From a virus (Duplodnaviria > Caudoviricetes), in the IMG/VR virus record IMGVR_UViG_3300017911_001939, positions 59,210 to 123,209 of that record: DNA of 64,000 nt. One strand, 5' to 3'. Shown in pieces: positions 55,442 to 63,968 of this stretch (position 1 is its first letter; each line of letters starts with the position of its first letter). The notes beneath the pieces are model-generated. The model ran no database searches. It was not told the DNA's origin and saw nothing but the letters and a program-made list of their open reading frames with translations. The position numbers and the translations under genes were made by a program.

Positions 55442-57931
55442 ATGTCATTCTATACAAATGTTGCCCGTTACGGTAATACAATACTCTATCGCGGTTACTC
55501 GGCCAATGGTCAGAAAGTAATTAAACGCGATACACAATTCAAGCCACAGTTCTTCACTCAGTCAAAAGTAGATACTGGGTGGAGATCGCTTGATGGTGAG
55601 CCTATTGGCTCGATCGAGTTTAGTCATATGCGTGAAGCGCGCGAATGGCTTGAAATGAATAAAGACGTTTCTGGTCGAAAGATCTTCGGCAATAGAAACT
55701 ATTTACAACAATATATTACACAAAAATTCCCTCGCGATATCGAATTTGATCGTGACCTCATTGATGTAGGCACATTCGATATCGAGACTGCATACGAGAA
55801 TGGATTTCCTACACCCGATGTAGCAGATCAAAAAATCCTCTCGATCACCTATAAATCAAGCAAGTCTAAACTATATCATGTATGGGGTTATGGCGACTTT
55901 GATACTAAAGCGTCACTTATCCAGCCTGTACGATACTACAAGTGCGAAGACGAGTATCACTTGCTTGAATCATTCATTGCTTTCTTTTCAGATCCATCAC
56001 ATTGTCCTGATGTATTGACTGGTTGGAACATTCGATTCTTCGATGTGCCATACCTTATCAATCGTACAGCGCGTATGCTTGGTGTAGATTACTCGAAGAA
56101 GTTCTCGCCTTGGGGCTTGATCGACTATCGCGAGATTACGCGTCGTGGTCGTAAGGATCATTGCTACCATATTACAGGTATTGAGCAGCTCGATTACCTC
56201 GAACTGTTTCAAAAGTTTGGCTATTCGTATGGTGCACAAGAATCATACAAACTTGACCATATTGCATATGTAGTTCTCGGTGAAAAGAAGCTAAGTTACG
56301 CCGAACAAGGCTCGCTTAAAAATCTATACAAAGAAGACTTTCAACGTTATATCGATTATAATATGAAAGACGTTGAGCTCGTTGAACGACTCGAAGATAA
56401 GATGGGTTTGCTCACACTTGCCATGACTGTGGCATATAAAGGTGGTGTAAACTATGGTGATACATTTGGTACTACTGCTATATGGGAATCAATCATCTAT
56501 CGTAAGCTAAACAGCCAAAAACGTGTACCTAAAGCATGGACACCTGATGCTGGTAAATCTAAATTTGCTGGTGGCTATGTCAAAGATCCTATGGTTGGTG
56601 GTCATGATTGGGTTGTTTCGTTCGATTTAAATTCTCTGTATCCTAATATTATTGTGCAGTGGAATATGTCACCTGAAACACTTATCGATCAAGCTGAGGT
56701 GTCTGGTGTAGATTACTATATGAATTCGCCAAAGGTCGAAGGTAACTATGCAGTCGCTGCAAATGGTTCGCGCTACAATAAAAACTTCGAAGGTGTTATT
56801 CCTTCTATTATTGTAGACTACTATGATGATCGTAGATCTATCAAAGATCAAATGCTTGCTGCACAATCGGCATATCAAAAAGAAAAAACTACGGAGCTCG
56901 ATAAAGAAATCAACAAACTTAATAACCAGCAAATGGCTATTAAGATTCTGATGAACTCTCTTTATGGTGCACTCGGTAATCAATACTTCAAGTATTTCGA
57001 TCTTCGTCTCGCCGAAGGTGTTACACTGTCTGGTCAGTTGGCTATTCAATGGGCTGAACGCGCAATGAACGAGACCATGAATAAGGTACTAAAGACAGAC
57101 AATGTTGATTATGTTATTGCTATTGACACCGATTCTCTCTATGTTAACTTTGGACCTCTTGTTAAGAAGCTCACTCCTAAAAACCCTGTGGCTTTCCTTG
57201 ATAAAGTATGTCAAGACCATTTTGAACCAGCTCTAAAGCAATGCTACGACGCGCTCTTCTCAAAGATGAACTGCTATGTTAATCGTATGGAAATGGGTCG
57301 TGAAGTAATTGCAGATCGTGGTATATGGACTGCAAAGAAGCGATATATACTTAACGTACATAACTCAGAAGGTGTGCAATATGCAGAACCAAAACTTAAG
57401 ATTATGGGCATTGAAGCAATCAAGTCCTCTACGCCAGAAATCTGTCGTGATAAATTCCGCGACATCTTCAAGGTTATTATATCGGGATCAGAAGCTGATA
57501 CTCAGGCTTTTATTAAAAATTTCAAGGAAGAATTTAAAAGCTTGCCACCTGAAAAGGTCGCATTTCCGCGGTCTGTCTCGAACATTACTGACTGGAGCGA
57601 TAGGAAAACTGTGTACAAGAAAGGCACGCCAATTCACGTTCGTGGCTCGCTCTTGTACAACAAGCTTCTCAAGTCTTCATCCCTCACTAAAAACTACGAG
57701 CTTATATCAAACGGCTCGCGAATCTTCTTCTCGTACATGAGGACACCAAATCCTATGCATGAGAATGTACTAGCATTTCCTGATGTATTGCCCGAAGAGT
57801 TTAAGCTAAATAACTATGTGGACTATGACAAACAATTTGACAAGACATTTGTCGAGCCACTCAAATTAATTCTTGATGCGGTTGGCTGGAATCCTGAACC
57901 AGTTGCAACACTCGATGAATTTTTCGGTTAA
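55442..57931 (+). CDS. gp43: DNA polymerase gp43 (family B)
   Basis: DIET exonuclease motif; SFDLNSLYP; KILMNSLYGALGN; DTDS; KKRY. Confidence 0.98.
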   Translation: MSFYTNVARYGNTILYRGYSANGQKVIKRDTQFKPQFFTQSKVDTGWRSLDGEPIGSIEFSHMREAREWLEMNKDVSGRKIFGNRNYLQQYITQKFPRDIEFDRDLIDVGTFDIETAYENGFPTPDVADQKILSITYKSSKSKLYHVWGYGDFDTKASLIQPVRYYKCEDEYHLLESFIAFFSDPSHCPDVLTGWNIRFFDVPYLINRTARMLGVDYSKKFSPWGLIDYREITRRGRKDHCYHITGIEQLDYLELFQKFGYSYGAQESYKLDHIAYVVLGEKKLSYAEQGSLKNLYKEDFQRYIDYNMKDVELVERLEDKMGLLTLAMTVAYKGGVNYGDTFGTTAIWESIIYRKLNSQKRVPKAWTPDAGKSKFAGGYVKDPMVGGHDWVVSFDLNSLYPNIIVQWNMSPETLIDQAEVSGVDYYMNSPKVEGNYAVAANGSRYNKNFEGVIPSIIVDYYDDRRSIKDQMLAAQSAYQKEKTTELDKEINKLNNQQMAIKILMNSLYGALGNQYFKYFDLRLAEGVTLSGQLAIQWAERAMNETMNKVLKTDNVDYVIAIDTDSLYVNFGPLVKKLTPKNPVAFLDKVCQDHFEPALKQCYDALFSKMNCYVNRMEMGREVIADRGIWTAKKRYILNVHNSEGVQYAEPKLKIMGIEAIKSSTPEICRDKFRDIFKVIISGSEADTQAFIKNFKEEFKSLPPEKVAFPRSVSNITDWSDRKTVYKKGTPIHVRGSLLYNKLLKSSSLTKNYELISNGSRIFFSYMRTPNPMHENVLAFPDVLPEEFKLNNYVDYDKQFDKTFVEPLKLILDAVGWNPEPVATLDEFFG

Positions 57932-57934
57932 CTG

Positions 57935-57963
57935 TTTACAAATGATGAATAATGGAGTATAAT
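57935..57963 (+). promoter_or_regulatory. Sigma70-like promoter
   Basis: gTTTACA-N17-TATAAT. Confidence 0.7.
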
Positions 57964-57969
57964 AATACT

Positions 57970-58389
57970 ATGAAAACTTGGCATAATGATATTAATGACA
58001 TGCACAAAAAATTTGGCGTGCATGATTGGGTAAAGGGCGAGCTCGATAAAGGTGATTGGTCTCGTCTTCGTAAATTTATTGACTTTCGTCTGCGTTTCTT
58101 GCAAGAAGAATTGGACGAAACTAAGAATGCTGTAGAGAATGCTGATGCTCCTGAAGTGGTAGATGGTCTTATCGATCTCTGCGTCGTGGCTATCGGTACT
58201 CTTGATGCATTTGGTGTAGATGCGCAAAAAGCATGGGATGAGGTACATAATGCCAATATGGCAAAAGAACGTGGTATTAAAGAATCACGACCTAATCCGC
58301 TTGGCTTGCCTGATTTGATTAAACCTGAAGGATGGACAGGACCGAACCATGATGACAACACAGGCACTATCACTGACGCTCTTCGATAG
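57970..58389 (+). CDS. MazG-like NTP pyrophosphohydrolase
   Basis: LQEELDE...EVVDGLIDL...WDEVHNANMAK...PDLIKPEGW. Confidence 0.85.
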   Translation: MKTWHNDINDMHKKFGVHDWVKGELDKGDWSRLRKFIDFRLRFLQEELDETKNAVENADAPEVVDGLIDLCVVAIGTLDAFGVDAQKAWDEVHNANMAKERGIKESRPNPLGLPDLIKPEGWTGPNHDDNTGTITDALR

Positions 58390-59290
58390 CATCTTTGACA
58401 ACAAAACAAACAAACGCATTGATCTCAAAGATTTCGATGCGTTTGAACGCGTTCTGTATGAACTTGCCGAAAAGCCTCGTGCTGGTAAGAAAGATGCAGA
58501 ACTTATGTCTCCTGCTACATACATGCCTAATACTACTCGTAAGAACGATAATGTTATCGAGTGGTCAGGTTGGTGTGCGGTTGATGTAGATGATTATGAA
58601 TTTGAAGGAGACTTAAAAGATGTATTGGTTGAACGTTTTGGTCATTACCGTTTCGTTTGTTATTCTACTGCGAGCAGCAGCGAGTCTTCGCCAAAGTTCC
58701 GCATTGTGTTCCCACTTACAAACTCAGTTAGAAGGGATCGAATTAAGGAATTCTGGTGGGCACTCAACACCGAGCTGGGAGACATCGGAGATAAACAGAC
58801 TAAAGACCTCTCTCGGATGTATTATATTCCTGCAAGATATGATTCTGCATTTAACTTTATTTTCAGCCACAATGGTGGCATGCCTATTGACAGTGATGAA
58901 CTAATCTTCAAGCATCCTATGCCTCAGAAGTCATCTCTCAATAATTTCTTTGATCGTCTTCCTACGGCTATGCAAAAAGAAATCATTGAACACCGTAAGG
59001 CACAACTCGACCAGAACTTTGAATGGACTTCATATCATGATTGTCCATTTTGGCCTAAACAACTTGCTGCTGAATATCAGACTATCTCAAAGACTGGTTG
59101 GTATCATAAGATGTACCAGATTATGGTTGCTGTGGCTGGTAAGGCAGTTGAACGTAAGTATCCAATCGAAGCTGCCGAGATTAGTCAACTCTGTCGTCAG
59201 TTTGATGAAGCTACTGGTAATTGGTATAAGAATCGTCCGCTCGATAAAGAAGCAGATCGAGCACTAGAATACGTATATAAAAACCTCTAA
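58349..59290 (+). CDS. AEP/PrimPol-type primase-like protein
   Basis: AVDVDD (DxD), YSTASS...KFRIVFPL, D.QTKDLSRMYYIP; helical C-terminal domain. Confidence 0.7.
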   Translation: MMTTQALSLTLFDSIFDNKTNKRIDLKDFDAFERVLYELAEKPRAGKKDAELMSPATYMPNTTRKNDNVIEWSGWCAVDVDDYEFEGDLKDVLVERFGHYRFVCYSTASSSESSPKFRIVFPLTNSVRRDRIKEFWWALNTELGDIGDKQTKDLSRMYYIPARYDSAFNFIFSHNGGMPIDSDELIFKHPMPQKSSLNNFFDRLPTAMQKEIIEHRKAQLDQNFEWTSYHDCPFWPKQLAAEYQTISKTGWYHKMYQIMVAVAGKAVERKYPIEAAEISQLCRQFDEATGNWYKNRPLDKEADRALEYVYKNL

Positions 59291-59357
59291 AAAAATTAAA
59301 AAAAATTTAAAAAAGTGCGTTTTTACTATGTACAATCCTGGATTTTTATGGTAAGAT
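59289..59357 (+). promoter_or_regulatory. Probable early promoter with A-tract UP element
   Basis: Phased A-tracts at 59289-59314, then TGTACA-N17-TAAGAT with TGG; GAGGAG SD downstream. Confidence 0.6.
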
Positions 59358-59387
59358 ATATCCATAATCAGAGTTGAGGAGAAAACG

Positions 59388-59690
59388 ATGACAAAGCCAA
59401 TCAACAAAACATCAATGTTTAACGTTAACCGTCTGATCGATAGCTACATGAAAGAGTGTAACTACTGGTTTGGCCGCGACAACGGCATGTCTGAAATGTA
59501 TGCTGCTGATCGCAACGACTTTATGACAGTTCGTGACCTGTATAAAGGTCTTGAGTATGATAAGATGGTTGAGTTCGTCCATCGTATGGACACTTCACCT
59601 CGTGAAGATATTGTAATTGCTATGGCAAAAGATTGTGGTGTTGCATTTGTACGTGACACCCTTGGTTATGATTGTGAAGGACATGTATAA
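59388..59690 (+). CDS. Hypothetical early protein
   Basis: GAGGAG SD; downstream of early-type promoter. Confidence 0.65.
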   Translation: MTKPINKTSMFNVNRLIDSYMKECNYWFGRDNGMSEMYAADRNDFMTVRDLYKGLEYDKMVEFVHRMDTSPREDIVIAMAKDCGVAFVRDTLGYDCEGHV

Positions 59691-60451
59691 TGGAAAAATT
59701 TATTGAAATCAACAAAGTCGTACCTGCAACACCAGACGACTATATTCTAAAGCGCATGCGTGAGCGTGCAGAAGAAAGTCATGGCACACGTGACCTCGAT
59801 CTTATTAGCGAACGTCGTCGTTGGGAAGCAGAGTTTCCCGAGTATCATCAGTGTCAGGTTGACTCTAAGCAAGAAGTTTATTGGGGTTTCCAATATGACA
59901 CGATGCACGAAGATCTTGGTGAAATGGAATATAAGCAGTTTGCTAAGAAAGGCGTTAAGCTAAGTCCATATACACAAGACCGTATCAAAGACGGTACAGT
60001 CAAATATATTGTTGTTTGGAAATGGGCTGACGGAAATCGTTGGTCTCCGCTTGAAGCAAACAAGCAAGCTAACTACGAAATTTGTGGTTATGTAGAAGCC
60101 AATCGCGCTCTTGAACTTCTTCAAAATGTGGACGGAGATATGCGTTTCCCTTATCCTCCACCTCCATCTCTTGAAGAAGTTACTGAAGTCGAAGAAGAAG
60201 ATCGTGCTGAAACGATTCGTAAGCTTGAACGTATGCCTGTTGATAAGGCACGTACAATTGCACTTCGTCTGATGGAAGATTGGAATCCTACTAAAATTGG
60301 TGGGAAAGCCTCTAAAAACCGTACTATATATGATATCGAACATGCATTTACATCACGCGATATCTGTGGTATAATGTATCGACTACAACTTGCTAGCGAA
60401 GGTTTAGGTACAATCGACTCTTCGTGGCAACAACATTATAGGAACATCTAA
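59690..60451 (+). CDS. Hypothetical two-domain protein
   Basis: 253 aa; PYPPPP-EEE linker between two domains. Confidence 0.6.
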   Translation: MEKFIEINKVVPATPDDYILKRMRERAEESHGTRDLDLISERRRWEAEFPEYHQCQVDSKQEVYWGFQYDTMHEDLGEMEYKQFAKKGVKLSPYTQDRIKDGTVKYIVVWKWADGNRWSPLEANKQANYEICGYVEANRALELLQNVDGDMRFPYPPPPSLEEVTEVEEEDRAETIRKLERMPVDKARTIALRLMEDWNPTKIGGKASKNRTIYDIEHAFTSRDICGIMYRLQLASEGLGTIDSSWQQHYRNI

Positions 60452-60798
60452 TGAAAGAATCCATTAAAGTCCTACAAGAATGCGCTGAATTGCAAACGAA
60501 TAAAGGTAATGATTACCAAAACGAGCATTCGCGCATCCGTCAAGCAGATTATTATCCTAACGGTGTATCAACTCTGCTTGACATCAATCATGCGAAGATG
60601 CTTCGTATGCAATCTGTCGTAGCTGCTATGATGTCAGATCCAGACTACGAACCAAACTTTGAGTCTATCGAAGACTCAGCGAAAGACATGATCAACTATT
60701 GTTCATTCATCGTTGCCTATTGCCGTGGTAAGATGGATGGTCAGAATCCAGACCATGACTTTCTTAATCGACCAAAGAGAGTAAAAAATGAAAGCTAA
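60451..60798 (+). CDS. Nucleotide-modification-associated domain protein (Nmad1/DUF1599-like)
   Basis: KGNDY...K.LR...ESIEDS.KD.INY pattern. Confidence 0.65.
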   Translation: MKESIKVLQECAELQTNKGNDYQNEHSRIRQADYYPNGVSTLLDINHAKMLRMQSVVAAMMSDPDYEPNFESIEDSAKDMINYCSFIVAYCRGKMDGQNPDHDFLNRPKRVKNES

Positions 60799-61084
60799 TT
60801 CTATTGTAACAGCTGTACTACTAAATGGTGCAGAAATCATTGGACGTTTTGTAGAAGAGAATGAAAATACAATCACTATCTACAAACCACGTCTTGTTTC
60901 CCCTCAACAACAAGGATTAGCTTTTGTACCGGGAATCGCCATGACTGGCGTAGAGCCAAATGGCGATTTCCAATTTACAAAGCATTCTGTTCTATATGTA
61001 ATTGAAACACAAGAACAGATTGCAGGTGCATGGCAAAAGGCCACATCTGGTCTTGAGATGCCAACTGGTGGGTTAGTAGCGTGA
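60788..61084 (+). CDS. Conserved T4-like hypothetical protein (Sm-like fold)
   Basis: L.NGAEIIG...KPRLV...Q.ATSGL. Confidence 0.6.
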   Translation: MKANSIVTAVLLNGAEIIGRFVEENENTITIYKPRLVSPQQQGLAFVPGIAMTGVEPNGDFQFTKHSVLYVIETQEQIAGAWQKATSGLEMPTGGLVA

Positions 61085-61494
61085 AGGTAGGTTTAACTGC
61101 ATCCACGTTTGACCTACTGCATGCTGGTCATGTCGCGATGTTGCGTGAAGCCAAAACACAGTGTGATTGGCTGATCGCCGCATTGCAAGTAGATCCTTCT
61201 GTAGATCGCAAAAATAAAAACAAACCTATTCAAAGTATCGTCGAAAGGCAAGCACAAATTGCTGCCGTAAAATATGTCGACGAAGTCATTATTTATTGTA
61301 CAGAAGACGATTTACTTGATATAATTAACATGTATCCAATCGATATACGAATCCTCGGTGAAGAATATCGATTGAAAGATTTTACTGGTAAAGATGAATG
61401 CCGTACACGTGGCATCGAACTTTACTTTAACAAACGAGATCATAGGTTCTCGTCGTCTGACCTAAGGGAGCGAGTCTGTGCTAAACGTAAGTGA
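61081..61494 (+). CDS. Cytidylyltransferase (TagD-like)
   Basis: TFDLLHAGH HxGH motif; ER..Q...VKYVDEV; FSSSDLR. Confidence 0.88.
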   Translation: MKVGLTASTFDLLHAGHVAMLREAKTQCDWLIAALQVDPSVDRKNKNKPIQSIVERQAQIAAVKYVDEVIIYCTEDDLLDIINMYPIDIRILGEEYRLKDFTGKDECRTRGIELYFNKRDHRFSSSDLRERVCAKRK

Positions 61495-62176
61495 TATCCG
61501 CAAACATTTTATTGAGGAGCTAAAGAATGAAAACTTTTCCCGGGACAAATCTGGAGTCAAAACTATTGAGCTTATCGGTGCTTCGTTCAACGCCGATGAA
61601 CCCGCCATCTTCGGATCGGTCAATCAAGACTATGTTGATGCTGAGCTTGCTTGGTATAATTCTCAGTCTAGTAGCATATACGACATACGACCTGATGGTG
61701 ACCCTCCAGCAGCTTGGAAATATAGTGCAAATAAACACGGACAGATTAACAGCAATTATGGCAAACTAATCTACGCTGATAAATACTTTAACCAATACGG
61801 TCAAGCACTCGATGAACTGCTTCGTAATCCTGACAGTCGTCGTGCAATCATGATTTATAATCGACCGTCTATGTGGGTAGATTGGTGTGAAGATGATAAA
61901 AATGATTTTGTATGCACTAATGCTGTTAGCTATTATATCCGTAACGGTGCAATACACTGCGTGGTACAAATGCGCTCAAACGATGTCGTGTACGGATACA
62001 AAAATGACTATGCTTGGCAGCTTCATGTTCTGACCGAGTTTACACGTGACTATAACTCTCTTTATATGGATGCAGCATGGGATGCTGACTATCGTAAAGA
62101 GATGACTGTTGGTAATATTACATGGCAAGTACAAAACTTGCACGTCTATGAAAGGCATTTCGACCTTGTCAAGTAA
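61478..62176 (+). CDS. dCMP hydroxymethylase-like (T4 gp42-type thymidylate synthase family)
   Basis: INSNYG; DFVCTNAV; MRSNDVVYGYKNDYAWQ; QNLHVYERHF, closely matching T4 gp42. Confidence 0.85.
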   Translation: MLNVSDIRKHFIEELKNENFSRDKSGVKTIELIGASFNADEPAIFGSVNQDYVDAELAWYNSQSSSIYDIRPDGDPPAAWKYSANKHGQINSNYGKLIYADKYFNQYGQALDELLRNPDSRRAIMIYNRPSMWVDWCEDDKNDFVCTNAVSYYIRNGAIHCVVQMRSNDVVYGYKNDYAWQLHVLTEFTRDYNSLYMDAAWDADYRKEMTVGNITWQVQNLHVYERHFDLVK

Positions 62177-62636
62177 ACTAAATCTCGTAATCCAACGTAA
62201 AGAAAGCTGGGATTCTCGCTTTCTTGATTTAGCCGAACAAATCGCGGGATGGTCAAAAGATCCATCTCGCAAAATCGGTGCGGTTGCTATTGGATCTGAG
62301 GGACAAGTACTTGCACAAGGATACAATGGATTTCCTCGAGGCATTATAGACCTAGAAGATAGGTACAACGATCGCCAAGAGAAATACAAGTTGGTGGTTC
62401 ATGCTGAAATGAATGTAATATATAATGCTACGTTTAATGGTGTATCGTTGAAAGACTCAACGCTATACGTGCATGGACTTCCTGTTTGCTCTGATTGTGC
62501 CAAAGGCATAATTCAGGTTGGTGTTAAAAGAGTCGTCATGAGAGAACAAGAAATTCCAGATATTTGGAAAGACTCATGGCAAAAAACAAGGGAGATGTTC
62601 GATGAAGCAGGTGTCAAATGGGAATTCTACTCGTGA
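62166..62636 (+). CDS. cd: dCMP deaminase (start uncertain)
   Basis: WSKDPS; GYNGFPRG; HAEMN; PVCSDC. Confidence 0.92.
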   Translation: MSSKLNLVIQRKESWDSRFLDLAEQIAGWSKDPSRKIGAVAIGSEGQVLAQGYNGFPRGIIDLEDRYNDRQEKYKLVVHAEMNVIYNATFNGVSLKDSTLYVHGLPVCSDCAKGIIQVGVKRVVMREQEIPDIWKDSWQKTREMFDEAGVKWEFYS

Positions 62637-62799
62637 AAGTTACCATGATTACATGCTACGAAAGATGCGAGAAGAAGATAAACGCTTAGGTATCGATCAC
62701 CGATCACCAGACACTAAAATAAAAGAACTCACAAATCGAGTCAAACAGCTAGAAGTTGATATGGCACATATGATGAGGAAACTTGAAGGAACTACTTAA
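62602..62799 (+). CDS. Small hypothetical protein
   Basis: Fills gap between cd and next gene; coiled-coil C-terminus. Confidence 0.55.
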   Translation: MKQVSNGNSTRESYHDYMLRKMREEDKRLGIDHRSPDTKIKELTNRVKQLEVDMAHMMRKLEGTT

Positions 62800-63968
62800 T
62801 GAACATTGAGCTCACCGAATATTATGATGATTTTTTGAGGTACTTTAATAAAGCCTACGAACAGCAGATTAAATGTAACGTGGCTGATGAAGCACCATAC
62901 GGTATGATCCCTCATATGGAGTCCGATATGGACGATGACCTTATGCATTGGATCGAGCTCTATGACGTAGTCGAACGTAAATATGCTGGCTTCTCTCAAA
63001 TTATGAATGATTGCTGGTCTGGTTGGACCGAAGATCATCCATATTGGAAAAAGATGGAAGCCGGCAAAATTACTAATCAAAGAGAAGTGGTAGCCAATAA
63101 TTGGACAGGCAAACATAAAGACTTCGATTTGCCCGAATGGTTGTATCTGTTTATTCTGCATCGTGTAACAGGATCTGCCATTAATTATGGTACTAAACCA
63201 TCTGGCTACCACAACACTCTGCTTTTTACTCTTCATAAGGCTCGTACTATTGAAGAGATGATTTGGCATATGAAGAGACATAAGTCTCCATTCTACACAT
63301 CAATTGGTTATCAATTCCCTAAATTTCCAAAACCTCAAGGTGATTATAAAAAAGGTGGTGACTATTACCTTGGTGAATATGCACCTCGTCTAGCTCGTGA
63401 GATGGCCGAATGGCTACAAAAATCTAATGAGCGCAAAGATCTTCGTGAGATTGGTGAATTTATGGGCCAGTGGAATGAACGTAATGGTCTTAATCGTTAT
63501 ACATTTCAATATGCTGCTGTAGTTGCAGATATCGCTGATTGGTATCCTGAGTTTGTCAATAAAGAATCGCCATTCTATTATGGCACAAATGCTGTAGAGT
63601 GTATTTCTTATCTCGCAAAGCCAACAGTAAAGATGAAGAAAGAACAGTTTCTCGATGCTGTGATGGCTAAGATCTACGAAGATACTAAGTCATATCCATA
63701 TAATGCAGAAGATGTATGCTGTGACTATATCCGTTGGGTCGAAAACTATGTACGGCCAGGTGCACACTACTCACACGTAAATCTTGATGAAATTTGGTCA
63801 TCGAGCAATATTAAAAACCATCCATATGGCAGACAAAAAGCCATGTTAGAAATGGGATTGGTTGAATCATTTAATGGTCTTAAGCATCATCCATCAGATG
63901 ATACAGTTATTAAAGCCGCAGGCATCAGCGTAGAGGAATACAAACAAAGATGCATAACTCTACACTAG
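62799..63968 (+). CDS. aGPT-Pplase / amino-acid:DNA transferase-like protein (HhH glycosylase fold)
   Basis: YDVVER, LFILHR, F.YAAVVAD, GTNA, EDVCCDYIRW align by eye with the FTNV.R / LFR / F.AYQ..D / GPGA / E..LCE..KY motifs of the family. Confidence 0.6.
   Translation: MNIELTEYYDDFLRYFNKAYEQQIKCNVADEAPYGMIPHMESDMDDDLMHWIELYDVVERKYAGFSQIMNDCWSGWTEDHPYWKKMEAGKITNQREVVANNWTGKHKDFDLPEWLYLFILHRVTGSAINYGTKPSGYHNTLLFTLHKARTIEEMIWHMKRHKSPFYTSIGYQFPKFPKPQGDYKKGGDYYLGEYAPRLAREMAEWLQKSNERKDLREIGEFMGQWNERNGLNRYTFQYAAVVADIADWYPEFVNKESPFYYGTNAVECISYLAKPTVKMKKEQFLDAVMAKIYEDTKSYPYNAEDVCCDYIRWVENYVRPGAHYSHVNLDEIWSSSNIKNHPYGRQKAMLEMGLVESFNGLKHHPSDDTVIKAAGISVEEYKQRCITLH

What the first reader, a model, noticed from the sequence alone, without database searches (positions are those of the whole stretch)
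57970..63968. DNA hypermodification locus pairing a cytosine-type hydroxymethylase with an aGPT-Pplase-like transferase
Seen: MazG-like pyrophosphatase, Nmad1-like protein, cytidylyltransferase, thymidylate-synthase-family enzyme, dCMP deaminase and a 389-aa HhH-fold transferase-like gene. The synthase reads RSNDVVYGYKND. Established: Asp at this last position (T4 gp42 GFRND) selects dCMP, while Asn selects dUMP; characterised aGPT-Pplase/amino-acid:DNA transferases act on phosphorylated 5-hydroxymethyluracil. Inference: this phage may make 5hmC and attach a non-glucose group (amine, amino acid or CDP-activated polyol), giving a possibly new hypermodified cytosine. The 389-aa family call is by eye and the locus continues past the window.
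Basis: partly seen in the sequence, partly recalled or inferred. Interest (0 to 1): 0.75.

Follow-up and report, generated by a model that had tools for sequence, protein, structure and literature searches.

The report
Hydroxymethylcytosine locus with glycosylase-fold modifier
An uncultured marine T4-like phage makes T4's hydroxymethylcytosine, and where T4 keeps its glucose-adding gene it starts a conserved gene set, cut off by the contig end, that probably puts a still unknown non-sugar group on the cytosines of its DNA.

Summary
Window 57952-63968 encodes a MazG-like pyrophosphatase, a weak Nmad1-like protein, a cytidylyltransferase, a T4 gp42-type dCMP hydroxymethylase, a dCMP deaminase and a 389-aa protein.

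The hydroxymethylase matches PDB 1B49 at E=2.8e-66. It keeps the Cys, the RSND Asp, the Asp at the N177 position and the acidic L143 position.

The 389-aa protein has no Pfam or PHROG hit. Its AlphaFold model (pLDDT 94.6) has the helix-hairpin-helix DNA-glycosylase fold. The best solved match is the PaMx11 glycine:DNA transferase gp46 (Z 10). It carries an invariant Glu304-Asp305-x-x-Cys308 that resembles gp46's Glu243-Thr244-x-x-Cys247.

It is not a sequence-level member of the aGPT-Pplase/AADT family. Pfam and profile-profile tests fail.

The window ends at the contig end, 17 codons into the next gene. Close relatives, including a complete 152.7-kb genome with a 92% identical homolog, continue with a paralog, a fold-II PLP enzyme and an SGNH-fold protein, then uvsX. 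No 5-hm DNA kinase and no T4 glucosyltransferase was found in them.

Most likely this is a kinase-free, non-glycosyl hypermodification of 5hmC. The chemistry is unknown.

The cytidylyltransferase is an accessory insertion.

This scan found the same cassette before on other genomes.

The parts
55442..57931 (+). T4 gp43-type family-B DNA polymerase. It anchors the locus in the T4-like replication module.
   Evidence: tblastn: 54% to Phage C48C1 and 47-48% to cyanomyovirus DNA polymerases. Syntenic genes in relatives carry DNA_pol_B Pfam hits.
57952..58389 (+). MazG-like / PRA-PH all-alpha NTP pyrophosphatase. It is a candidate dCTPase that feeds dCMP to the hydroxymethylase; this role is inferred.
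   Evidence: PF01503 E=2e-10; phrog_671 E=1.7e-25. It is conserved next to gp43 in all long relatives. PRA-PH co-occurs with Asp-type TS genes on cytosine-modified contigs (PMC8670742).
58349..59290 (+). Conserved 313-aa protein of unknown role. It resembles the N-terminal part of a PHROG annotated 'DNA primase'.
   Evidence: phrog_9765 E=3.6e-48. No Pfam, NCBIfam or PDB sequence hit. Present in 16 related loci.
59388..60451 (+). Two ORFs of unknown function in a variable slot: 100 aa at 59388-59690 and 253 aa at 59690-60451.
   Evidence: No hits in Pfam, PHROGs, NCBIfam, PDB or the Atlas. Only the 3' part (60193-60789) aligns to the nearest relative L042.
60451..60798 (+). 115-aa Nmad1-like protein. 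The assignment is weak.
   Evidence: phrog_1485 and phrog_18404. No Pfam hit itself. Homologs in L004 and L033 hit DUF1599 (Nmad1) at E 6.6e-4 and 1.5e-4, below cut-off. Present in 23 related loci.
60788..61084 (+). 98-aa ORF (phrog_527, unknown function). It is part of an insertion relative to the nearest complete relative.
   Evidence: phrog_527 E=6.5e-10. Window 60790-61491 has no counterpart in L042.
61081..61494 (+). 137-aa cytidylyltransferase of the GCT/ECT/RfaE-II class. The substrate is unassigned. It is accessory to the cassette.
   Evidence: PF01467 E=6e-13. PDB 3elb E=4.4e-21 and 1coz E=1.1e-12, with the HxGH motif aligned. RfaE-II and TagD equivalog scores are far below cut-off. 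Absent in L042, L004 and L008. Present at 70% identity in the L033/L034/L056 lineage between gp42 and the 389-aa gene.
61478..62176 (+). dCMP hydroxymethylase, T4 gp42 type (5hm-dCMP synthase).
   Evidence: PDB 1B49 E=2.8e-66 over residues 2-231. NDFVCT has the catalytic Cys with an acidic residue at the ThyA L143 position. RSND keeps Asp169. ...KND has Asp at the N177 position. All 26 neighbours of the 389-aa family share these motifs.
62148..62636 (+). dCMP deaminase. The ORF is open from TTG 62109; the in-frame ATG is at 62148.
   Evidence: PF00383 E=1.3e-18; phrog_174 E=8e-44. Start codon read.
62602..62799 (+). 65-aa ORF of unknown function. Relatives carry 69-154-aa ORFs here, one with a weak UDG-superfamily hit.
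   Evidence: ORF list. L004's 137-aa counterpart hits PF03167 at E=3.8e-5, borderline.
62799..63968 (+). 389-aa HhH-glycosylase-fold protein with invariant Glu304-Asp305-x-x-Cys308. It is the first gene of the post-replicative cassette.
   Evidence: AF2 pLDDT 94.6. PDB best match 8z2n PUGT: Z 10.0, rmsd 3.9, 210 aa; then AGOG, DUF2419 and other HhH glycosylases. BFVD hits are named AADT, HMUDK-helical or Pplase1. Invariant residues. At least 965 metagenomic homologs and 144 clusters at 50% identity. No hit in 50,697 phage records.
63950..64000 (+). First 17 codons of the second gene of the cassette (the paralog), cut by the contig end.
   Evidence: The ATG at 63950 overlaps the 389-aa gene by 19 nt, the same geometry as in L008. 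The N-terminus (MHNSTLDEFI...) resembles those of the L008 and L004 paralogs.

Best explanation
The window carries the replication-module end of an uncultured marine T4-like phage.

Before replication, three enzymes act on nucleotides. A MazG-like pyrophosphatase supplies dCMP (inferred). A gp42-type enzyme converts dCMP to 5-hydroxymethyl-dCMP (well supported). A dCMP deaminase feeds dUMP to a separate ThyX, which is seen in relatives. The phage DNA therefore contains 5hmC.

The 389-aa gene at the window's end is the first gene of a conserved post-replicative cassette. The cassette occupies the slot where T4 has beta-glucosyltransferase, between gene 42 and uvsX.

In relatives the cassette continues with:
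- a paralog of the 389-aa protein;
- a fold-II PLP enzyme;
- a two-domain protein whose C-terminal domain is SGNH (esterase/O-acyltransferase fold) and whose N-terminal ~100 residues weakly resemble the DNA/5hmC-binding domain of T4 beta-glucosyltransferase.

My reading of the mechanism is inferred, not shown. The two glycosylase-fold proteins flip 5hmC out of DNA and use the conserved Cys at C6, as proposed for PaMx11 gp46. This makes the 5-methylene carbon exchangeable. The SGNH protein acts on the 5-CH2OH oxygen and may install an ester leaving group in place of the phosphate used in thymidine pathways. The PLP enzyme supplies or trims an amino-acid-derived substituent.

The product would be a non-glycosyl hypermodified cytosine made without a DNA kinase. 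The cytidylyltransferase in this window is an accessory insertion and not a core part.
For: 5hmC synthesis:
- PDB 1B49 E=2.8e-66, with all diagnostic residues. The diagnostics are taken from PMC13326640.

Fold and motif of the 389-aa protein:
- Model confidence is high.
- The best PDB match is the AADT gp46, Z 10, above generic HhH glycosylases at Z 8.5 or less.
- BFVD neighbours are named AADT or HMUDK-helical. Atlas neighbours carry PF18723 and PF18724.
- Glu304 and Cys308 are invariant in 48 divergent homologs. They resemble gp46 Glu243 and Cys247, whose roles are given in PMC11472151.
- Three profile alignments put the E-x-x-x-C motifs of the 389-aa family, its paralog, AADT and HMUDK_hel in register.

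Cassette:
- The paralog is homologous: hhalign Prob 95%, E=2e-8, with the motifs aligned.
- The order 389-paralog-PLP-SGNH-uvsX (PLP and SGNH swapped in L004) holds in L004, L006, L008 and L042. The paralog follows the 389-aa gene in 39 of 47 IMG/VR loci.
- Seven clusters fuse the SGNH protein to a 389-like domain.
- The SGNH fold scores Z 12.5, with the GDSH and GxND blocks invariant.
- The weak beta-GT N-domain signal appears in 11 records at the same place. hhalign gives E=1.6e-4.

No kinase and no glucosyltransferase:
- PF18723 hits 0 of 3 here but 30 of 30 AADT phages.
- No full beta-GT and no alpha-GT was found, with T4 as positive control.
Against: - No sequence-level homology to PF18724 or PF18723: Pfam gives no hit, and hhalign probabilities are 0.1-4%.
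- The E/C equivalence with gp46 rests on motif pattern and non-significant alignments. I could not superpose coordinates.
- Z 10 for a helical protein lies in a range where shared arrangement alone is possible (note).
- The rest of the cassette is not in this window or genome. It is inferred from relatives at 72-92% identity.
- No T4 gp1-type dNMP kinase was found in the complete relative, so the route from 5hm-dCMP to the triphosphate is not accounted for. One AAA_33 kinase lies 30 kb away in G001.
- In one lineage (L053) the pair sits beside a true HhH-GPD glycosylase, with no TS gene on a 49-kb fragment.
- No chemical data exist and no cultured phage carries the family.
Confidence: 0.58

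Rival explanations
1. The 389-aa protein and its paralog are DNA glycosylases or other base-excision-type enzymes. They might remove C or U from host or unmodified DNA, or serve repair or anti-defence. They would not be group transferases, and 5hmC would stay undecorated or be modified by something else.
For: The fold family is that of HhH DNA glycosylases: AGOG, Mag1, EndoIII, OGG and MutY score Z 4-8.5. In L053 a true HhH-GPD glycosylase gene sits directly upstream of the pair. A weak UDG-like ORF precedes the gene in L004.
Against: No HhH-GPD Pfam hit. The invariant Glu-Asp-x-x-Cys is the gp46-type signature rather than the glycosylase Asp/Lys. The gene is tightly linked, and in seven clusters fused, with SGNH, and linked with a PLP enzyme; both are tailoring enzymes, not repair partners. 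The best structural match is the transferase.
Confidence: 0.14
2. The 389-aa protein is mainly a base-flipping DNA-targeting module, as the helical domain is for the 5-hmdU DNA kinase. The chemistry would be done by the SGNH partner, so the final mark would be a simple O-acyl ester of 5hmC, such as 5-acetoxymethylcytosine, rather than an amino-acid adduct.
For: Atlas and BFVD neighbours are more often labelled HMUDK helical domain than AADT. One of 48 homologs hits PF18723 at E=0.01. SGNH::389-like fusions mimic the kinase::helical-domain architecture. A minimal 389+SGNH pair occurs without the paralog or PLP enzyme in L036, L050 and L054. SGNH relatives include the O-acetyltransferases PatB and OatA.
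Against: Glu304 and Cys308 are invariant in both paralogs, which argues for catalysis. The PLP enzyme and the second paralog are conserved in most lineages, which implies more steps than one acylation.
Confidence: 0.15
3. One reading: the cytidylyltransferase makes a CDP-activated alcohol (glycerol, ethanolamine or similar) that is attached to 5hmC in this phage.
For: The enzyme is a true GCT/ECT-class cytidylyltransferase and abuts gene 42. A 70% identical copy sits between gp42 and the 389-aa gene in a second lineage. The same slot holds NDP-sugar epimerase and UDP-glucose dehydrogenase in L006 and L007.
Against: It is absent from the nearest complete relative (92% identical 389-aa homolog) and from L004 and L008, which keep the whole cassette. 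No phosphotransferase for a CDP-alcohol was found. Pelagimyophages carry rfaE-like and UDP-glucose dehydrogenase genes, which PMC7029224 reads as envelope-related auxiliary genes.
Confidence: 0.08
4. The cassette acts on thymine or 5-hydroxymethyluracil, as all characterised AADTs do, and the TS-family enzyme serves dUMP.
For: A dCMP deaminase, which supplies dUMP, is adjacent. All characterised AADTs act on phosphorylated 5hmU (PMC8989533).
Against: The enzyme has Asp, not Asn, at the N177 position and is a close gp42 homolog. Relatives carry ThyX for dTMP. No 5-hmdU DNA kinase is present (against the control). T4 itself has both a dCMP deaminase and gp42.
Confidence: 0.03

Closest known systems
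T4 5-hydroxymethylcytosine pathway (gp56 dCTPase, gp42 dCMP hydroxymethylase, cd deaminase, then alpha/beta-glucosyltransferase)
   Same: A gp42 ortholog with all diagnostic residues. A dCMP deaminase. An all-alpha NTP pyrophosphatase. The same genomic neighbourhood: gp43 ... 42 ... [modifier slot] ... uvsX, 41.
   Different: No alpha- or beta-glucosyltransferase. No gp1-type dNMP kinase was detected in the complete relative. The modifier slot holds the four-gene cassette instead.
Thymidine hypermodification pathways of phages M6, ViI, PaMx11, PhiW-14 and SP10 (5-hmdU DNA kinase, then amino acid:DNA transferase, then PLP decarboxylase and other tailoring enzymes; PMC8989533)
   Same: Post-replicative logic on a 5-hydroxymethylpyrimidine. 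A glycosylase-fold enzyme with an E-x-x-x-C motif. A co-located fold-II PLP enzyme. Paralogous pairs, as in ViI.
   Different: The base is cytosine, not uracil. No PF18723 kinase: 0 of 3 here against 30 of 30 AADT phages. An SGNH-fold protein takes the place beside or fused to the transferase-like protein. There is no sequence-level membership in PF18724.
PaMx11 gp46 / PUGT, 5-phosphomethyl-dU glycinyltransferase (PDB 8Z2N, PMC11472151)
   Same: Best solved structural match: Z 10.0 over 210 residues. It has a similar C-terminal Glu-(Thr/Asp)-x-x-Cys motif, in which gp46 Cys247 is the proposed C6 nucleophile and Glu243 binds the metal at O4.
   Different: 7% identity. The window protein is about 100 residues longer. 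hhalign is not significant. The gp46 residues that hold glycine (Trp146, Lys150, Asp24) could not be mapped.
5hmC carbamoyltransferase giving 5-carbamoyloxymethylcytosine (MetaGPA study, PMC8670742)
   Same: Another non-sugar derivative of 5hmC, found in uncultured phages next to an Asp-type TS homolog, PRA-PH and a dCMP deaminase.
   Different: A different enzyme family (TobZ-like carbamoyltransferase). No such gene was seen in this locus.
5-hydroxy-dCMP synthases of RB69 and DLP3 with arabinosylation (PMC13326640)
   Same: T4-like phages whose TS homolog has Asp at N177 and an acidic L143 position. A nucleotide-sugar gene slot lies near DNA polymerase.
   Different: Those enzymes have Asn at the ThyA-169 position. 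This one and all 26 relatives keep Asp (RSND), so 5hmC and not 5hoC is expected.
T4 beta-glucosyltransferase, N-terminal (DNA/5hmC acceptor) domain
   Same: The SGNH protein of the relatives sits directly upstream of uvsX, as beta-gt does. Its first ~100 residues give weak PF09198 hits in 11 records. hhalign gives E=1.6e-4, aligning N-L-F-G-G with T4 N70-F-F-G-G and D99 with T4 D100.
   Different: All hits are below the Pfam cut-off. The UDP-glucose-binding C-terminal domain is replaced by an SGNH domain. This gene lies beyond the end of this window.

Membership tests
T4 gp42-type dCMP hydroxymethylase (5hm-dCMP synthase) | Close homology to the solved T4 enzyme within the thymidylate-synthase fold | tested here: met
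   phmmer against PDB 1B49: E=2.8e-66 over residues 2-231. PF00303 E=9.5e-14.
T4 gp42-type dCMP hydroxymethylase (5hm-dCMP synthase) | Catalytic Cys, plus Asp in place of ThyA Asn177 (which selects dCMP) | tested here: met
   NDFVCT and ...GYKND align with T4 SDFMCT and GFRND.
T4 gp42-type dCMP hydroxymethylase (5hm-dCMP synthase) | Acidic residue at ThyA Leu143 (admits water) and Asp kept at ThyA 169 (Asn there marks 5-hydroxy-dCMP synthases) | tested here: met
   Asp lies three residues before the Cys. RSND is identical to T4's. The criteria come from PMC13326640.
T4 gp42-type dCMP hydroxymethylase (5hm-dCMP synthase) | Enzymatic conversion of dCMP to 5hm-dCMP with methylene-THF | not testable with these tools
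   Needs an enzyme assay.
Amino acid:DNA transferase / aGPT-Pplase (Pfam PF18724 ADDT) | Match to the family profile | tested here: not met
   No PF18724 hit at E up to 10 for the protein or in the genome. None of 48 homologs hits it. hhalign against two gp46-family profiles gives Prob 0.1-4%.
Amino acid:DNA transferase / aGPT-Pplase (Pfam PF18724 ADDT) | Fold of the solved member (PaMx11 gp46, 8Z2N) | tested here: met
   Top PDB match by VIA-align: Z 10.0, rmsd 3.9, 210 aligned residues. Foldseek BFVD neighbours are named AADT.
Amino acid:DNA transferase / aGPT-Pplase (Pfam PF18724 ADDT) | Catalytic Glu...Cys (gp46 Glu243, Cys247) at the flipped-base pocket | tested here: inconclusive
   Glu304 and Cys308 are invariant with the same spacing and are placed in register through HMUDK_hel alignments. 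Those alignments are not significant, and no coordinate superposition was possible.
Amino acid:DNA transferase / aGPT-Pplase (Pfam PF18724 ADDT) | Works with a 5-hydroxymethylpyrimidine DNA kinase encoded in the same genome | tested here: not met
   PF18723 hits 0 of 2 near-complete relatives and does not hit G000. It hits 30 of 30 PF18724-bearing phage genomes.
5-hmdU DNA kinase helical domain (Pfam PF18723) | Match to the family profile, and linkage to a P-loop kinase domain | tested here: not met
   No hit for the window protein. One of 48 homologs hits at E=0.01. hhalign gives E=0.017, Prob 2.6%. The fused forms have no Walker A motif.
HhH-GPD DNA glycosylase superfamily | Helix-hairpin-helix glycosylase fold | tested here: met
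   AGOG Z 8.5, DUF2419 Z 8.4, and Mag1, EndoIII, OGG and MutY Z 4-7.
HhH-GPD DNA glycosylase superfamily | Profile match (PF00730) and the catalytic Asp/Lys of glycosylases | tested here: inconclusive
   No PF00730 hit. The catalytic residues could not be mapped without a residue-level superposition.
MazG / PRA-PH all-alpha NTP pyrophosphatase | Profile match above the curated cut-off | tested here: met
   PF01503: 41.4 bits against a cut-off of 21.3. dCTP specificity was not tested.
Cytidylyltransferase (GCT/ECT/RfaE-II class) | PF01467 match with the HxGH nucleotide-binding motif | tested here: met
   PF01467: 49.5 bits against a cut-off of 21. The motif LHAGH aligns with ECT.
Cytidylyltransferase (GCT/ECT/RfaE-II class) | Assignment to one substrate-specific equivalog (TagD or RfaE domain II) | tested here: not met
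   TIGR02199: 78 bits against 181.5. TIGR01518: 65 bits against 165.4.
Nmad1 (DUF1599, PF07659) | Profile match | tested here: inconclusive
   The window's 115-aa ORF has no hit. Homologs in L004 and L033 score 20-22 bits against a cut-off of 25.

The most novel reading that the evidence does not exclude
A widespread group of marine T4-like phages converts 5hmC in DNA into an amino-acid-derived or acyl-derived hypermodified cytosine without any DNA kinase.

A descendant of beta-glucosyltransferase has swapped its sugar-donor domain for an SGNH acyl-transfer domain and acts on the 5-CH2OH group. Two Cys-dependent glycosylase-fold enzymes then exchange the substituent at the 5-methylene carbon. 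A PLP enzyme tailors the product.

This would be the first cytosine counterpart of the thymidine amino-acid hypermodifications, and a new way of activating the base.
Probability: 0.33. Interest if true: 0.85.

Novelty: new variant of a known kind. Interest (0 to 1): 0.68.

Why it matters
Every characterised amino-acid-type DNA hypermodification is on thymine and needs a DNA kinase. Every well-characterised 5hmC decoration is a sugar, or in one case a carbamoyl group.

A kinase-free, non-sugar pathway on 5hmC would have three consequences:
- It would add a new base to the list of natural DNA chemistries.
- It would add new enzymes for site-selective labelling of 5hmC.
- It would change how restriction, CRISPR and sequencing chemistry (bisulfite, APOBEC, nanopore) behave on an abundant class of ocean phages.

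The family is large: at least 965 homologs and 144 clusters at 50% identity. None has a cultured representative, which explains why it has gone unstudied.

Tried and rejected
Searches that found nothing:
- Megablast of the locus and tblastn of the 389-aa protein against 50,697 phage records: no match.
- Pfam, PHROGs and NCBIfam on the 389-aa protein: nothing. PDB sequence search with the protein and with its profile: nothing.
- PDB, Atlas and NCBIfam on the 253-aa and 313-aa ORFs: nothing.
- ThyX in G000: not on the held 73%. In relatives it lies beyond the contig end.
- Literature searches for an AADT-type or kinase-free 5hmC hypermodification: none found. Papers on the roles of T4 BGT Asn70 and Asp100 were not found in the library, so those roles are quoted from memory.

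Tests that were not significant:
- hhalign of the family against gp46 alone, against a 30-sequence gp46 family profile and against a 73-sequence one.
- hhalign against an HMUDK_hel profile. The known-related AADT/HMUDK_hel pair reached only Prob 19% in the same test.

Kinase searches:
- T4 gp1 dNMP kinase: no hit in G000, G001 or G002; the T4 self-control hit.
- An AAA_33 kinase was found 30 kb away in G001. It has no PDB relative, and only its last 48 residues are conserved in G000.

- The genome search on L004, L006 and L008: the records are not held.

Idea rejected: the contig is circular with the cassette continuing at its start. There is no terminal repeat, and the start carries unrelated genes.

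Full report
**What the window is.** The window is the last 64 kb of a 123,209-bp linear IMG/VR viral contig that CheckV rates 73% complete. The contig has no terminal repeat. Gene content and order around the finding are those of a T4-like replication module: clamp loader, RegA and a gp43 DNA polymerase at 55442-57931. The polymerase is only 54% identical to the nearest record (Phage C48C1) and 47-48% identical to cyanomyoviruses. Neither the locus DNA nor the 389-aa protein finds anything in 50,697 phage records. Related contigs come from marine and estuarine metagenomes. [quoted passage not shown] That link is my inference.

**Checking the observation.** All genes lie on the + strand.
- 57952-58389 is a MazG-like/PRA-PH pyrophosphatase.
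- 61081-61494 is a cytidylyltransferase. Its best solved relatives are ethanolamine-phosphate and glycerol-3-phosphate cytidylyltransferases. It reaches no substrate-specific NCBIfam cut-off.
- 61478-62176 is the thymidylate-synthase-family enzyme.
- 62148-62636 is a dCMP deaminase.
- 62799-63968 is the 389-aa ORF.
- The reported motif RSNDVVYGYKND is present at residues 166-177.
- The 'Nmad1-like' call is weak. The 115-aa ORF at 60451-60798 has no Pfam hit. Its homologs in two relatives hit DUF1599 only below threshold.
- The 313-aa ORF next to MazG resembles part of a PHROG annotated as primase and stays unexplained.
- At 63950 a new ORF starts, overlapping the 389-aa gene by 19 nt. The contig end cuts it after 17 codons.

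**The hydroxymethylase.** It matches the solved T4 dCMP hydroxymethylase at E=2.8e-66 over its whole length. Ordinary thymidylate synthases score only about 1e-4. It has the catalytic Cys, an acidic residue at the ThyA Leu143 position and Asp at the Asn177 position.

A 2026 paper shows that many T4-like 'gp42' homologs in fact make 5-hydroxy-dCMP, and that these carry Asn at the ThyA Asp169 position (PMC13326640). This enzyme keeps Asp (RSND, identical to T4), and so do all 26 homologs that neighbour the 389-aa family in related loci. I therefore take 5hm-dCMP synthesis as well supported. The adjacent dCMP deaminase does not argue for a uracil pathway. T4 has one too, and relatives encode ThyX a few kb downstream.

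**The 389-aa protein.**
- Sequence libraries give nothing.
- It belongs to a large, well conserved family: at least 965 metagenomic homologs at 68-85% identity, and 144 clusters at 50% identity.
- With a 48-sequence alignment, AlphaFold gives a confident, mostly helical model: pLDDT 94.6, pTM 0.92.
- Among solved structures the best match is PaMx11 gp46, the 5-phosphomethyl-dU glycinyltransferase (Z 10.0, rmsd 3.9 Å, 210 residues). AGOG, the queuine-salvage DUF2419 enzyme and other helix-hairpin-helix DNA glycosylases follow at Z 4-8.5.
- Among predicted viral structures, a 63% identical protein is named 'amino acid:DNA transferase domain-containing'. More distant hits are AADT, the 5-hmdU DNA kinase helical domain and Pplase1 proteins.
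- The language-model Atlas points the same way.

Family membership, however, fails at the sequence level. PF18724 and PF18723 do not hit. Profile-profile comparison with gp46-family alignments of 30 and 73 sequences is not significant.

The family's invariant residues include Glu304 and Cys308, with Asp305 and Asp309 nearly invariant. In gp46, Glu243 and Thr244 hold the metal at O4, and Cys247 is the proposed nucleophile that attacks C6 (PMC11472151). The spacing is the same. Three independent but non-significant profile alignments put the E-x-x-x-C motifs of the 389-aa family, its paralog, AADT and HMUDK_hel in register. In the same test the known-related AADT/HMUDK_hel pair reached only Prob 19%, so the method is near its limit here. 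I treat the catalytic equivalence as likely but unproven.

**What lies beyond the window.** Five related loci read in detail, at 69-92% identity, continue in the same way. In L004, L006/L007, L008/L009 and L042 the order is gp42-like, dCMP deaminase, a small ORF, the 389-aa gene, a 327-334-aa gene, a fold-II PLP enzyme, a 325-353-aa protein and then uvsX; L033 keeps the cassette core but has a C5 cytosine methylase and gp45 after it, not uvsX. In L004 the PLP enzyme and the 325-353-aa protein are swapped. Sources: L004, L006/L007, L008/L009, L042 and L033. L042 lies in G001, a 152,719-bp genome with direct terminal repeats that CheckV rates 100% complete.

- The 327-334-aa protein is a true paralog of the 389-aa protein (hhalign Prob 95%, E=2e-8). 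Its E-D-x-x-C motif aligns with Glu304/Cys308. Its N-terminus resembles the 17 codons at the window's end.
- Across 47 IMG/VR loci, the paralog follows the 389-aa gene in 39. SGNH and PLP genes are found wherever the contigs are long enough in the close lineages.
- Seven protein clusters fuse the 325-353-aa protein to a 389-like domain, which is strong evidence that the two work together.
- I folded the 325-353-aa protein (pLDDT 89.5). Residues about 142-330 form an SGNH hydrolase domain: Z up to 12.5 against acetylesterases and the O-acetyltransferases PatB and OatA. The GDSH and GxND blocks are invariant.

**A lead I have not seen noted before.** The first ~100 residues of the SGNH protein give weak, sub-threshold hits to the Pfam model of the T4 beta-glucosyltransferase N-terminal domain.
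- The hits occur in G001, G002 and 9 of 24 further records, always at the same place. None occurs in the 14 control genomes.
- hhalign against T4 beta-gt gives Prob 50%, E=1.6e-4. It aligns the family-invariant N-L-F-G-G with T4 N70-F-F-G-G, and D99 with T4 D100.
- From memory, not checked here, Asn70 fills the gap left by the flipped base and Asp100 is the general base for the hydroxymethyl group.
- In T4, beta-gt sits between gene 42 and uvsX. In G001 and L008 this gene is the one directly upstream of uvsX.

The simplest reading is a beta-gt descendant whose sugar-donor domain was replaced by an acyl-transfer or esterase domain.

**Kinase and glycosyltransferase tests.**
- The HMUDK_hel profile finds a gene in 30 of 30 phage genomes that carry a true AADT. 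It finds none in G001, G002 or G000.
- The fused forms have no Walker A motif.
- T4 alpha-glucosyltransferase is absent, and beta-gt is absent as a full gene, with T4 as positive control.
- No gp1-type dNMP kinase was found. A 269-aa AAA_33 kinase 30 kb away in G001 may fill that role.

**Mechanism.** The steps differ in how well they are supported.

| Step | Status |
|---|---|
| 5hm-dCMP synthesis | Well supported by sequence |
| A conserved, co-transcribed and partly fused set of two glycosylase-fold Cys proteins, an SGNH protein and a PLP enzyme in the beta-gt slot | Shown |
| These act on 5hmC in DNA after replication | Inferred |
| The Cys attacks C6 as proposed for gp46, so the substituent on the 5-methylene carbon can be exchanged | Inferred |
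| The SGNH protein acts on the hydroxyl and may provide an ester leaving group in place of the phosphate of the thymidine pathways | Inferred |
| The PLP enzyme provides or trims an amino-acid-derived group | Inferred |

C5-methyltransferases are known to couple thiols to 5hmC through the same covalent C6 activation without a kinase. This is my own knowledge of work from the Klimasauskas laboratory and was not checked here. It means a kinase-free route is chemically reasonable. I cannot name the final base.

**The cytidylyltransferase.** It abuts gene 42 in this window. It is part of a ~700-bp insertion that is absent from G001, L004 and L008. A 70% identical copy sits between gp42 and the 389-aa gene in the G002 lineage. 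L006 and L007 carry an NDP-sugar epimerase and UDP-glucose dehydrogenase in the same slot. It may add a lineage-specific twist, or it may be an envelope-related auxiliary gene as proposed for pelagimyophages. It is not core.

**Earlier notes of this scan.** A look-up after I had formed this reading showed that the scan had already flagged the same cassette on other genomes. Two follow-ups called it a kinase-less 5hmC hypermodification cassette. I tested the main points independently here: the missing kinase with a positive control, the paralogy, the SGNH fold and the fusions. They hold.

**Verdict.** This window holds the nucleotide-level half and the first gene of a probably new cytosine hypermodification system. 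It is a new variant that combines T4's 5hmC pathway with a kinase-free, AADT-like tailoring set. No paper found in four searches describes it.

Noticed in passing
L033:14354-15562 (G002, IMGVR_UViG_3300023178_000009): A C-5 cytosine DNA methylase-family gene (PF00145, E=4.6e-16) sits directly after the SGNH gene of the cassette. The phage should have little unmodified C, so its substrate is unclear. The cassette there lies between gp46/47-like genes and gp45, not next to uvsX.
   Followed up: no
L173 (Erythrobacter phage vB_EliS_R6L, KY006853.1, gp1 across the record start): The only cultured-phage relatives of the cassette's PLP-fold enzyme (34-36% identity, E down to 1e-34) are domains inside large proteins annotated 'DNA modification methylase', in two Erythrobacter phages and a Microcystis phage. 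This PLP-fold domain is therefore fused to DNA-modifying enzymes elsewhere.
   Followed up: partly
L053:9166-12138 (G003, 49.5-kb fragment): In a 58%-identity lineage the 391-aa gene and its paralog follow a true HhH-GPD glycosylase gene (PF00730, E=9e-10). No thymidylate-synthase-family gene is on the contig, and a SegE-like GIY-YIG endonuclease lies just downstream.
   Followed up: partly
L036:9992-12297, also L050 and L054: A minimal form occurs: a 401-aa 389-like gene directly followed by a 376-aa SGNH gene, with no paralog or PLP gene detected.
   Followed up: no
window 58349-59290: A conserved 313-aa protein always sits next to the MazG gene in this phage group. It matches only the N-terminal part of phrog_9765 ('DNA primase', E=3.6e-48) and has no Pfam or PDB relative. 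Its role in the module is unknown.
   Followed up: partly
L006:6729-8238 and L006:754-1971: In the slot where this window has its cytidylyltransferase, a close relative has an NDP-sugar epimerase and a UDP-glucose dehydrogenase. It also has a radical-SAM gene just upstream of the DNA polymerase.
   Followed up: no
L001:361-1660 (G000:C1:361-1660, the start of the same contig): A second, 355-aa cytidylyltransferase-like protein (phrog_395 and phrog_3041) overlaps a DUF5824 gene, a few kb before a class-II-like ribonucleotide reductase.
   Followed up: no
L058:1444-2253 (G001:68023-68832) and L001:5591-5734: A 269-aa P-loop AAA_33 kinase in the complete relative is a candidate dNMP kinase. In this genome only its last 48 residues are conserved (69% identity), after a 196-aa ORF that lacks a Walker A motif.
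   Followed up: partly
L008:15679-16101: A 140-aa APS-kinase/AAA_18/AAA_33-type P-loop kinase lies between uvsX and the gp41 helicase in one close relative only.
   Followed up: no
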